A stretch of 64,000 nucleotides of DNA from Promethearchaeota archaeon (GTDB lineage: Archaea > Asgardarchaeota > Lokiarchaeia > Sigyniarchaeales > SOKP01): assembly GCA_016840085.1 (NCBI GenBank), contig JAEOTA010000056.1, positions 1-64,000 on the forward strand, in the 5' to 3' direction. The notes beneath the pieces were generated by a model that worked only from the letters and a program-made list of their open reading frames with translations, was not told where the DNA came from and made no database searches. The first letter of the stretch is position 1, and every line of letters starts with the position of its first letter. Shown piece by piece: positions 34,364 to 58,498 of this stretch. Made by a program: the position numbers and the translations under genes.

Positions 34364-34502
34364 TTTATTGTTTTTTAAAGCATAATTAGAGAAGATAAGA
34401 ATTTATAATTATTGGATAATAAATAAAGAATTATTAATTATCATTTCTTTTTTTTTTATAAACCTTAATAATCTCTATTAAAACCATAAGGATAAACAAA
34501 AG

Positions 34503-54986: not shown

Positions 54987-56108
54987 TTATATCAAATCAG
55001 GTGTGATGCCCTCTTTAAAATATCTGGCTCGAGTTATCCAATTGTCTGAGAATTCTGGAATCATGGCCAGAATAGAACCACCAATCCAAACGGAAAATGT
55101 CCTTTCTTGAGGAGCAATAATTCTGAGGGACTGATCTTTTTTCTTCCTCCTAGCCAACTCCAATTCTAATTCTTGATATATACGTGATTTTAGATTAGGG
55201 AACATTGAAGATCCTCCAGATAGAAATATGTTGTTTAATAATTCTGGACGAATATCTAAATCACAAGCTCCAATCACATCTATTATAGCAACGGGTAATG
55301 AGTCTTCCTCTAATTCTGAAGAAGGGTTAAATAAGAGCTCTGGTACAATAAATCTTTCTTTATTCAAAGAAATAGTGGAGCCATCGGGTAAGGAATATTC
55401 CTTTTCATACTGTTCACTTCTTCTTAGGTCTTCTTTATAATCTAGCGATACAAAACAAGCCTTTTCCTTTAATACTCGAACTAGTTCTCGTCTTATAGAT
55501 GAATCTACAGACCATCCAATTGATTCTAATGTTTGTTCCATATACCGAGTTAAGACTCTTCCTCCTATGTCCAAAATCTTTACTGCATGTTCTAATTTAT
55601 AGCCTTCATAAATTGGAACAATTCTGGTATTACTATCACCAATTTCAATAATTAAGCCTGTTTGAAATCCTCCTGAATATAGAGTCAACATAGAATCAAG
55701 TACAGGATAAAAAGCCATGCATTGATACTGCTCTAAGAAAAGTTCAAAAATTTTTTTTAAATCTTTATACGGAAATAAAGGGTGTACAGCAAATAATACA
55801 TGCACCAAAGTGGGATCTACTCTCAAATTATAAAAAATATAATCAATAATGTTTTCAAAACGTGCCCAATCTATAATCATCCCTCGTTCTATAGGATGAG
55901 AAATCTTATATAAACCAATTGATTGAATTTCATCACCAACATAGATTTCATTTTCTCGAGATTCATTTGTTACATAATCAATCCCTACACTTTGGTATTT
56001 GGGCTGCCCAACCATCGTTAAAAATACTTGGCTAGGTGAATCTTCTCCTGCAAATCCGATCTTTGAACTAAACTGACCTATATCTAAAACAACAGTAAGA
56101 TTTCCCAT
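54987..56108 (-). CDS. Asgard actin-family (actin-related) protein
   Basis: KIGFAGEDSP, HPIERG.I.DW, VPIYEGY, KEKACFV, YSLPDG, LSGGSSMFP and SVWIGGSILA. Confidence 0.95.
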   Translation of the reverse strand: MGNLTVVLDIGQFSSKIGFAGEDSPSQVFLTMVGQPKYQSVGIDYVTNESRENEIYVGDEIQSIGLYKISHPIERGMIIDWARFENIIDYIFYNLRVDPTLVHVLFAVHPLFPYKDLKKIFELFLEQYQCMAFYPVLDSMLTLYSGGFQTGLIIEIGDSNTRIVPIYEGYKLEHAVKILDIGGRVLTRYMEQTLESIGWSVDSSIRRELVRVLKEKACFVSLDYKEDLRRSEQYEKEYSLPDGSTISLNKERFIVPELLFNPSSELEEDSLPVAIIDVIGACDLDIRPELLNNIFLSGGSSMFPNLKSRIYQELELELARRKKKDQSLRIIAPQERTFSVWIGGSILAMIPEFSDNWITRARYFKEGITPDLI

Positions 56109-57148: not shown

Positions 57149-57871
57149 CTATTCTCCTCTCATGATCTTCTTCAATCTATTTAACTCATCGAGCATTTCA
57201 TCTCTAAGAGATCCTAAACCACCGCCTACTTGAGGAGCAGCTGCAGGTGCTGTAGGAGCTGCTGTGCCAGGAGGTCTTGGCGGTCCGCCACTAGGAGCTG
57301 TGGCAGGTGGTGCAGTTGGAGCGACAGGTCTTTTTGCAAATGTTGGTGCTTTTGGTGGACCACCACCAGCTGGAACTTTAGGGGGACCTCCACCTGAAGG
57401 AGGTAGTTTAGGGGCGGGTGGCAAATTACCACGCTTAGGGGGACCGCCACCAGGAGGTGCTTTAGGAGGACCTCCACTAGGGGGTGCCTTTGGAGGACCA
57501 CCACCAGGTGGCGCTTTAGGAGGACTACCACCACTTGGAGGAGCAGGGGTAGCTGTCAGACTGGGGGGAGGTGGAGCTGCTGCTGAAGCCTCAGATGGAA
57601 CTCCTCCGCTTAATAAGGAAAATAATGTGCTAGCTGCGGCTGTTTTAGCAGTATCAGGGGTTGCTGCTGCTACTATTTTTTTAGAGGAAGTACTTACTGT
57701 TTGAACTTCTTCTACAGTAATATCTTTTAAATCCTTCTGGGCTTTAGCTAAAGACTTGATAAAATCATTAATTCCTTTTACAGACTCCTCAAGATCATCA
57801 GCTAAAGAAGTTAGACCTTTTTTCATAAAATTAATAACGCGTTCGATTTTTTTTTGCTCTTTTGAAACCAC
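57149..57871 (-). CDS. Proline-rich protein with N- and C-terminal coiled-coil helices (VASP/NPF-like architecture)
   Basis: GGPPKAPP repeats; terminal GGLGSLRDEMLDELNRLKKIM. Confidence 0.8.
   Translation of the reverse strand: MVSKEQKKIERVINFMKKGLTSLADDLEESVKGINDFIKSLAKAQKDLKDITVEEVQTVSTSSKKIVAAATPDTAKTAAASTLFSLLSGGVPSEASAAAPPPPSLTATPAPPSGGSPPKAPPGGGPPKAPPSGGPPKAPPGGGPPKRGNLPPAPKLPPSGGGPPKVPAGGGPPKAPTFAKRPVAPTAPPATAPSGGPPRPPGTAAPTAPAAAPQVGGGLGSLRDEMLDELNRLKKIMRGE
57340..57540 (-). repeat. 27-nt intragenic repeats encoding GG(G/S)PPKAPP
   Basis: Four tandem plus two degenerate units are visible in the translation. Confidence 0.85.
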
Positions 57872-58152
57872 GTCTTACTCAATTCCTCTAATATTATTGA
57901 AAGTTTGATAAAAAGTTATTATTACTAGTAATAATCTAATATTTTAATTATATAATAAATTAATATGTATTTATATTTTTATTCCATTCTTGAATGAACT
58001 TTTAATTTGAACTAACCAGTATTTCTGAAAAAACGTTAATTATTAAAAAACCTAAACTAATAATATTATATAACATATTTCATTAGTAATTTTTAAATTA
58101 ATTACATTATAAATTCAAAAAAAAAATAAGACATAACTAAAATTTTTGCATT

Positions 58153-58158
58153 GGTGAT
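58153..58158 (+). promoter_or_regulatory. Shine-Dalgarno GGTGAT for the intron-split gene
   Basis: Complementary to the archaeal 16S 3' end; ends 5 nt before ATT 58164. Confidence 0.65.
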
Positions 58159-58163
58159 TAAAT

Positions 58164-58498
58164 ATTCCTAAAAGAGAGCTCTTCATAATAGACTTAACAC
58201 TCCGTTAGGTTTGTGAAAAAAGGGTATATGAAATAGTAAACGAGCTCAAAATACCACTGTTCCATTGAGATCTCCTCATTTTACATTTGGAGTGGACATT
58301 GACGAGCGCGTTTATGATAAGGTTACTTTCAGTACGGGATCGGCGATCGCATCCGTCATTTTCAAATTTGAAGAGGATGAATCTGTAATCCGAGGATTCC
58401 TCGGTCTTGCTGAATACTTTCATACTGTTGTAATTAAGCGTAAGGACGAGTTTTTCATTCCTCATGCGTCTATATTGTTCCGTTTGATTAGCGCTTAA
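58164..58498 (+). CDS. 88-aa protein encoded by three exons: join(58164..58188,58219..58259,58298..58498), ATT start
   Basis: Spliced product: MPKRELFIKRVYEIVNELKIPLIDERVYDKVTFSTGSAIASVIFKFEEDESVIRGFLGLAEYFHTVVIKRKDEFFIPHASILFRLISA. Exons total 25+41+201=267 nt. The ORF track's TTG 58265 start lies inside intron 2. Confidence 0.75.
58189..58218 (+). other. Putative BHB intron 1 (30 nt, contains in-frame UAG)
   Basis: Central helix UCAU(58183-86)/GUGA(58213-16); bulges AAU and AAA; 9-bp intron stem AGACUUAAC/GUUAGGUUU; exon helix GCUCU/AGGGU. Confidence 0.7.
58260..58297 (+). other. Putative BHB intron 2 (38 nt, frameshifting, contains in-frame UGA)
   Basis: Central helix CCAC(58254-57)/GUGG(58292-95); bulges UGU and ACA; intron stem UCCA/UGGA plus UGAG/CUCA; closing A-U pair and GCUC/GAGC exon helix. 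Confidence 0.78.

What the first reader, a model, noticed from the sequence alone, without database searches (positions are those of the whole stretch)
58153..58297. Splicing-gated, non-AUG translation logic of the split gene
Seen: unspliced RNA gives a 14-aa peptide ending at UAG 58206-58208 in intron 1. Removing only intron 1 gives a 24-aa peptide ending at UGA 58266-58268 in intron 2. Both introns must therefore be removed to make the protein. The only plausible start is ATT, since an in-frame TGA lies 3 codons upstream. GAGCTC precedes both 5' splice sites (58176, 58242), and the two copies could pair with each other, competing with the intron-2 exon helix. Inference: an AND-gate or ordered-splicing switch that ties this protein to endonuclease/ligase activity.
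Basis: partly seen in the sequence, partly recalled or inferred. Interest (0 to 1): 0.7.

Follow-up and report, generated by a model that had tools for sequence, protein, structure and literature searches.

The report
Two mini-introns, odd start, no gate
A small conserved gene of an Asgard (Lokiarchaeia) archaeon is interrupted by two tRNA-type mini-introns and almost certainly starts at ATT, but relatives gain and lose each intron and the odd start separately, so this looks like ordinary obligatory splicing with built-in stop codons, not a two-key regulatory switch.

Summary
Every sequence claim checks out. The gene (ATT 58164 to TAA 58498) encodes a conserved 88-aa Asgard protein and carries two bulge-helix-bulge (BHB) inserts, 58189-58218 (30 nt) and 58260-58297 (38 nt). 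Both are absent from most orthologs at exactly the predicted cut sites, and their helices covary. ATT aligns with ATG in orthologs, 7 nt behind GGTG.

The AND-gate reading is not supported. Of 149 orthologs, 122 have no intron. Three intron sites occur singly or in several combinations, and 41 intronless copies also start at ATT/ATA/ATC/ACG. rps3 and EF-2 of this genome carry two such inserts too. The two GAGCTC are mainly the exon-helix arms of each intron. An intron-2-first folding effect appears only in this genome, not in five other multi-intron orthologs.

What is selected: all 28 frame-preserving introns found carry an in-frame stop (15/15 sequence types, 7.6 expected), like ciliate 3n introns. 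No RNA shows splicing. The protein has no fold match; its conserved neighbour is a coiled-coil/polyproline gene. This scan already noted Asgard BHB mRNA introns and ATT starts on other DNA; in print I found only cbf5 and one 5'-UTR case.

The parts
58147..58156 (+). TGCATTGGTG leader motif containing the Shine-Dalgarno-like GGTG(A) at 58153-58157
   Evidence: GGTG lies 7 nt before ATT, the commonest spacing among near-cognate starts in the family (43 of 56). The full motif is found in 15/22 intron-1 carriers vs 1/138 others; its function is unexplained.
58155..58157 (+). in-frame TGA closing the frame 3 codons upstream of the start
58164..58166 (+). ATT start codon (inferred)
   Evidence: Aligns with ATG in 81 of 160 homologs; the other 79 have ATT/TTG/ATA/ACG/ATC/CTG, each one base from ATG. 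No alternative start.
58164..58188 (+). exon 1 (codons 1-8 plus 1 nt); contains GAGCTC 58176-81 and central-helix strand TCAT 58183-86
   Evidence: spliced alignment to intronless orthologs
58189..58218 (+). intron 1, 30 nt, BHB type, frame-preserving, in-frame TAG 58206-58208 (CDS site 25)
   Evidence: Absent from intronless orthologs; 22 carriers of 29-52 nt at the same site; 95% of cells paired, 8 of 14 pairs with two-sided changes, slid controls 36-49%.
58219..58259 (+). exon 2 (41 nt); GAGCTC 58242-47 supplies the GCTC arm of the intron-2 exon helix, CCAC 58254-57 is the central-helix strand
   Evidence: GCTC plus downstream GAGC in 4/5 intron-2 carriers vs 3/144 others
58260..58297 (+). 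intron 2, 38 nt, BHB type, frameshifting, TGA 58266-58268 (CDS site 66)
   Evidence: Homology of the open frame starts at 58298 in nearly all full-length hits. Six carriers of 29-38 nt; the central helix covaries CCAC/GTGG, CCGT/ACGG, CCAT/ATGG.
58298..58498 (+). exon 3 (66 codons plus TAA); GAGC 58304-07 is the 3' arm of the intron-2 exon helix
   Evidence: 83-95% identical to most genus orthologs; folding P about 0.97-0.99 in unspliced RNA
57149..57871 (-). coiled-coil/polyproline gene, the conserved neighbour (context, not part of the splicing logic)
   Evidence: Adjacent in 45/51 full-length Lokiarchaeia loci and in 9 loci from more distant Asgard families.

Best explanation
The gene is an ordinary housekeeping-type Asgard gene whose mRNA carries two independent BHB mini-introns. 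Each folds locally from its own hairpin plus neighbouring exon bases, is cut by the tRNA-splicing endonuclease EndA and re-joined by RtcB (inferred), most likely constitutively and in no fixed order. The in-frame stops are a selected fail-safe: a ribosome that meets an unspliced message quits early instead of making a faulty protein, and may also leave the downstream intron free to fold (inferred). The ATT start is a separate, family-wide habit: a strong Shine-Dalgarno element plus a near-cognate codon, used with or without introns. Shown: anatomy, intronless orthologs, covariation, stop enrichment, uncoupling of start codon and introns. Inferred: actual splicing, enzymes used, initiation at ATT, purpose of the stops.
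For: Exact insertions relative to intronless orthologs in BHB register. Covariation at both introns. Exon codons constrained only in carriers. EndA and RtcB intact in this genome. 122/149 orthologs are intronless, and the combinations 25, 66, 199, 25+66, 25+199 and 25+66+199 all occur. BHB2 helix P>=0.90 with or without intron 1 in windows ending at 58330 or later. Ten single-intron carriers have an equally low naked-RNA probability for the intron-1 helix (0.00-0.05) yet must splice without a second intron. 28/28 frame-preserving introns have stops, 15/15 types vs 7.6 expected; non-3n 20/22. 41 intronless copies have near-cognate starts. rps3 and EF-2 of this genome carry two inserts each.
Against: No RNA evidence: the only RNA run is a contig from a relative with ATG and different codons. 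All 6 multi-intron copies lack ATG, and in rps3 9/10 intron-bearing copies vs 3/40 intronless ones have an SD-led leader. Some coupling between initiation mode and intron retention may therefore exist; it is not significant after correcting for kinship. In this genome, removing intron 2 raises the intron-1 helix from about 0.06 to about 0.4 in silico. The exon helix next to each bulge is only 1 bp (relaxed motif). The stop statistic rests on six sites in three genes.
Confidence: 0.68

Rival explanations
1. Translation-coupled or ordered splicing. Intron 2 is removed first; the two GAGCTC then pair, release the intron-1 central helix and allow the second cut. A slow ATT start keeps ribosomes from melting intron 1, so output tracks EndA/RtcB activity steeply.
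For: In silico the intron-1 helix rises from median 0.06 to 0.41 after intron-2 removal, with GAGCTC pairing median 0.5. GAGCTC is only 1.1% of Glu-Leu dicodons in this genome. 6/6 multi-intron copies lack ATG. Masking the initiation footprint raises the intron-1 helix in most close carriers. rps3 leader type tracks introns.
Against: No such effect in the 5 other multi-intron orthologs. Both GAGCTC occur together in only 1 of 6 multi-intron copies and in 2 intronless ones. 14 single-intron copies use ATG. The effect vanishes in short windows. Independent-pair tests give p=0.5.
Confidence: 0.22
2. The gene is decaying in this lineage (pseudogene): the inserts are not spliced and ATG mutated to ATT.
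For: No RNA evidence. The closest relatives on the gene tree are intronless with ATG.
Against: The joined protein is about 94% identical to orthologs, and it is the only copy found in this genome. The inserts covary across diverged carriers. ATT is used by 28 homologs.
Confidence: 0.04
3. Recoding instead of splicing: amber read-through (pyrrolysine) at TAG and a frameshift or restart at TTG 58265 for the second insert.
For: Intron 1 is frame-preserving with a single TAG. A 77-codon ORF starts at TTG 58265.
Against: The same site holds 29-, 37-, 43- and 52-nt inserts that shift the frame, and the stops are TAG, TAA or TGA in different carriers. The insert's protein sense is not conserved while its RNA pairing is. 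No PylS over the cut-off. TTG 58265 has no SD and would drop the conserved first helix.
Confidence: 0.04

Closest known systems
cbf5 pre-mRNA intron of Desulfurococcales/Sulfolobales (PMC2738675)
   Same: Short BHB-like intron inside a coding sequence, cut between the 2nd and 3rd bulge base by EndA; patchy loss among relatives; proposed as a negative regulator.
   Different: Here there are up to three intron sites in one small gene, in an Asgard lineage, with other genes (rps3, uL11, EF-2) also interrupted. Splicing is not shown experimentally, and the protein is not a known RNA enzyme.
HVO_1309 5'-UTR BHB intron of Haloferax volcanii (PMC7714728)
   Same: An mRNA processed by the tRNA-splicing endonuclease; expression falls when endA is repressed.
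   Different: That intron lies in the UTR and does not break the frame; these lie in the coding sequence and carry stops.
Stop-containing 3n ultra-short introns of ciliates (PMC5014332)
   Same: Very short introns; frame-preserving ones are enriched for in-frame stops, so retention ends translation early.
   Different: Those are spliceosomal and coupled to nonsense-mediated decay; these are BHB introns in an archaeon, where I know of no described NMD (own knowledge).
AUU-initiated bacterial infC and pcnB (own knowledge)
   Same: Near-cognate start behind a ribosome-binding site, probably lowering initiation.
   Different: The codon varies freely (ATT/ATA/ATC/ACG/CTG/TTG/ATG) within the family, and no feedback through an initiation factor is evident.
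Multi-intron tRNA genes of Asgard archaea (bioRxiv 10.64898/2026.10.13.758758)
   Same: Repeated gains of short BHB introns where the host RNA can form the motif; EndA widespread; none shown spliced in vivo.
   Different: That study covers tRNA genes only ('mRNA' does not occur in its main text).

Membership tests
BHB (EndA/RtcB) pre-mRNA intron, cbf5 type | Insert absent from orthologs whose precise removal restores the protein | tested here: met
BHB (EndA/RtcB) pre-mRNA intron, cbf5 type | 4-bp central helix with two 3-nt bulges, cut after the second bulge base matching the insert ends | tested here: met
   TCAT/GTGA gives 30 nt and CCAC/GTGG gives 38 nt
BHB (EndA/RtcB) pre-mRNA intron, cbf5 type | Structure kept by compensatory change | tested here: met
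   Intron 1: 8/14 pairs with two-sided changes, 95% paired vs 36-49% slid. Intron 2: A-U to G-C in 3 of 6, 98% paired; few sequences.
BHB (EndA/RtcB) pre-mRNA intron, cbf5 type | Exon-exon helix stacked directly on the bulge (strict hBHBh') | tested here: inconclusive
   Only 1 bp adjoins each bulge; a further exon helix (CTC/GGG, GCTC/GAGC) is selected in carriers. Relaxed motif, as reported for most cbf5 introns.
BHB (EndA/RtcB) pre-mRNA intron, cbf5 type | EndA and RtcB encoded | tested here: met
   EndA on C79, RtcB on C83, both without stops. A second EndA subunit was not found with these Pfam models.
BHB (EndA/RtcB) pre-mRNA intron, cbf5 type | Spliced mRNA observed | tested here: inconclusive
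   The single RNA run holds a relative's contig, not this genome's.
BHB (EndA/RtcB) pre-mRNA intron, cbf5 type | Cleavage by EndA in vitro | not testable with these tools
   bench assay
Ordered or regulated splicing switch (AND-gate) | The intron pair is conserved as a unit | tested here: not met
   122/149 intronless; each site occurs alone
Ordered or regulated splicing switch (AND-gate) | One splice motif forms only after the other intron is removed, in a conserved way | tested here: not met
   BHB2 is independent of intron 1. BHB1 gains after intron-2 removal only in this genome, in 0 of 5 other multi-intron orthologs.
Ordered or regulated splicing switch (AND-gate) | Product acts in RNA processing (feedback) | tested here: inconclusive
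   No family or fold assignment.
Ordered or regulated splicing switch (AND-gate) | Isoform ratios change with condition | not testable with these tools
   no RNA data for this organism
Near-cognate (AUU-type) initiation | Codon aligns with ATG of orthologs, no NTG alternative, SD at normal spacing | tested here: met
   37 of 56 near-cognate copies have no in-frame NTG in the 10 codons upstream
Near-cognate (AUU-type) initiation | Initiation shown by ribosome profiling or N-terminal peptide | not testable with these tools
   experiment needed
Pyrrolysine/stop read-through recoding | Conserved in-frame TAG with conserved protein sense, and PylS present | tested here: not met
   Frameshifting inserts and TAA/TGA stops at the same site; no PylS over the cut-off.

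The most novel reading that the evidence does not exclude
Lokiarchaeia have a translation-coupled quality-control layer on tRNA-endonuclease-spliced mRNA introns. In-frame stops are selected in the introns, and weak SD-led non-AUG starts slow ribosome loading so that BHB motifs can fold and be cut, here in the order intron 2 then intron 1. That would be a prokaryotic, nucleus-free answer to the clash between splicing and co-transcriptional translation in the lineage closest to eukaryotes.
Probability: 0.25. Interest if true: 0.85.

Novelty: new variant of a known kind. Interest (0 to 1): 0.6.

Why it matters
In the papers I could search, BHB introns in archaeal mRNA are documented for one coding sequence (cbf5) and one 5' UTR. 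A three-site, repeatedly gained and lost set in a tiny Asgard gene, with similar inserts in rps3, uL11 and EF-2, suggests mRNA splicing by the tRNA machinery is routine in Lokiarchaeia. The stop enrichment in frame-preserving introns parallels the eukaryotic intron 'spell-check' and makes it testable how an organism without a nucleus keeps ribosomes and splicing apart. In practice, gene callers miss or truncate this gene (introns plus ATT start), and readers mistake the TAG for recoding. The specific AND-gate claim would matter only if it were conserved, and it is not.

Tried and rejected
RNA evidence: one run with a 0.07 word share. Its contig 'skipping' 58253-58297 has ATG and different synonymous codons, so it is a relative, probably intronless in DNA; it is not evidence of splicing.

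Intrinsic genome-wide BHB scan: about 25,000 loose hits with no enrichment over mirror and bulge-size controls; too insensitive, replaced by a homology census. The first census run timed out.

Protein identity: nothing in Pfam, NCBIfam, PDB sequences, Foldseek (best E 0.28), VIA (best Z 4.4), the Atlas or longer fusions. This shows neither a new fold nor absence of relatives. Hits to long MBG-repeat proteins were chance. A complex with the neighbour's N-terminal 92 residues returned no answer.

A hidden 5' intron supplying an ATG: no ATG or split ATG is available upstream in this gene. A pairing partner for the TGCAT leader motif: none consistent. Whole-segment transfer of intronless rps3 alleles: the 5' segment tree does not group them. 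The near-cognate start rate in this genome: the test was swamped by shadow ORFs, leaving only a handful of credible cases. No tRNA or Rfam match in the window. The sigma-70 scan was uninformative.

Full report
Setting. The window is contig C51 of a 4.68-Mb, 29.5% GC genome. Its homologs come from Promethearchaeota/Lokiarchaeia records. The finding lies at the 5' end of a gene that ORF callers see only as a 77-codon TTG frame. It is transcribed away from a coiled-coil/polyproline gene, a PIG-L deacetylase and an actin homolog.

Observation. All coordinates are right. From ATT 58164 the unspliced RNA gives 14 aa, intron-1-out 24 aa, intron-2-out 14 aa, and both-out 88 aa. Only TTA and AAT lie between the upstream TGA and ATT.

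The introns are real at the DNA level. 55 of 61 related genomes have the gene, and homology of the open frame begins at 58298. Orthologs lack exactly 30 and 38 nt. Spliced alignment of 90 and then 210 distinct loci places the inserts in BHB register: intron 1 is 58189-58218 (H TCAT/GTGA, 9-bp inner stem) and intron 2 is 58260-58297 (H CCAC/GTGG). The family has three sites: CDS nt 25 (22 carriers, 29-52 nt), 66 (6 carriers, 29-38 nt) and 199 (9 carriers, 29-36 nt). At site 25, 95% of cells pair and 8 of 14 pairs show two-sided changes, against 36-49% when slid. At site 66, synonymous exon changes are matched by the intron. Exon codons are constrained only in carriers. EndA and RtcB are intact. 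Splicing itself is inferred: the one RNA run belongs to a relative.

The ATT start is very likely and is a family habit. At the aligned first codon, 160 homologs show ATG 81, ATT 28, TTG 23, ATA 17, ACG 5, ATC 5 and CTG 1. Every alternative is one base from ATG. 54 of 56 near-cognate copies have GGTG upstream, 43 at the 7-nt spacing seen here, and 37 have no in-frame NTG nearby. The state changes at least 24 times on the gene tree. A few intron-free-looking genes of this genome, such as a probable eL34, also seem to start at ATT/ATA, though that test was noisy.

The gate. Of 149 close orthologs, 122 have no intron, 21 have one and 6 have two or three. The sites occur alone and as 25+66, 25+199 and 25+66+199. 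Near-cognate starts occur in 41 intronless, 7 single-intron and 4 multi-intron copies; ATG occurs in 60, 14 and 0. The lack of ATG in all six multi-intron copies is a hint, but independent pairs give p=0.5. A homology census over about 415 loci of this genome found BHB inserts in roughly 1% of genes. rps3 has two, EF-2 has two, and uL11 has two in a relative. Needing every intron removed is therefore generic.

GAGCTC. Both copies are Glu-Leu codons. The second supplies GCTC for the exon helix of intron 2 (4/5 carriers vs 3/144 others). The first supplies CTC, present in 19/21 intron-1 carriers vs 48/128 others. Both together occur in six orthologs, two of them intronless and only this one multi-intron. 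In unspliced RNA their mutual pairing is about 0.02 or less at 37 C, and the intron-2 helix stays at 0.90-0.99 with or without intron 1. After intron 2 is removed they do pair (median 0.5), and the intron-1 helix rises from 0.06 to about 0.4 in most windows. So if there is an order here, it is intron 2 first. The five other multi-intron orthologs show no such change, and ten single-intron carriers have the same low baseline with no second intron to help. I read this as a local quirk or a modest kinetic bias, not a conserved switch.

The stops are selected. All 37 introns of this gene carry an in-frame stop, of varying type and position. Pooling all homology-found introns, a search blind to stops, frame-preserving ones have stops in 28/28 sequences and 15/15 sequence types against 7.6 expected from shuffles (joint P about 2e-5 if types were independent). 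Non-3n introns show 20/22. The types come from six sites in three genes; looser clustering within this gene gives P about 0.03. The effect is probable but needs a larger census. It resembles ciliate 3n introns (PMC5014332).

Mechanism. Shown: the anatomy and comparative constraints above. Inferred: each BHB folds locally and is cut by EndA and ligated by RtcB. Ribosomes loading at the weak ATT on unspliced RNA stop at 58206-58208, well before the intron-2 helices, so no faulty 98-aa or frameshifted protein is made. Output depends on splicing capacity in the same passive way as for rps3 or EF-2.

The protein. AlphaFold gives a confident alpha-beta-alpha-beta-beta-beta domain (pLDDT 92.9) with no clear match. 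The family is widespread in Asgard archaea (60 of 151 genomes). Its neighbour is conserved across distant families even though the orientation flips. That points to a shared function with the polyproline protein rather than to RNA processing (inference).

Comparison and novelty. It works like the cbf5 intron and meets every testable feature of that class except a strict exon helix (PMC2738675). PMC7714728 names cbf5 and HVO_1309 as the only mRNA cases. Literature searches found no report of Asgard mRNA BHB introns; the library lacks most subscription papers. This scan has noted such introns and ATT starts in other genomes. Verdict: new variant of a known kind; introns about 92% real, ATT start about 90%, dedicated gate about 20%.

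Noticed in passing
window 58147-58156 and G000:C85 (+), leader just before the rps3 TTG start: The leader motif TGCAT(T/A)GGTG occurs in 15/22 intron-1 carriers vs 1/138 others. It is also in front of intron-bearing rps3 here and in G066/G073; there are only 6 copies in the genome. No consistent pairing partner was found.
   Followed up: partly
rps3 loci L093-L122, L343-L360; G000:C85:141900-142300: Two leader types: SD-led TTG/GTG (M-P) with introns (9 of 10 intron-bearing copies) versus A-rich ATG-Ser without introns (37 of 40 intronless). They are mosaic across genomes; the SD type is longer in several genomes (39 nt in G000 vs G076) and often has a short upstream ORF ending at or near the start.
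   Followed up: partly
window 57149-57871 (-): Coiled-coil/polyproline protein with a conserved C-terminal helix; adjacent to the 88-aa gene in Lokiarchaeia (divergent) and in distant Asgard families (convergent). Actin homolog at 54987-56108.
   Followed up: partly
L034, L035, L381 (G066, G069, G213), gene start: ACG start followed by a one-base insertion after codon 6, recurring in three genomes; a GTG in the shifted frame could serve as start.
   Followed up: no
G000:C35 (-), 29-nt insert; L144, L166 (uL11), L146: Further BHB inserts found by homology: one in a C35 gene, 35-37-nt inserts in uL11 of G062 and G002, and a 31-nt insert in a small gene of G062.
   Followed up: partly
G000:C32 (+) near 34412: Probable ribosomal protein eL34 appears to start at ATT behind AAGGT.
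   Followed up: no
window 58028-58090: AT-rich block between the divergent genes, strongly conserved across the genus; probably the shared promoter region.
   Followed up: no
window 58260-58297: Intron 2 is 8-9 nt longer than other site-66 introns; the extra bases form a 9-nt bulge in its stem.
   Followed up: no
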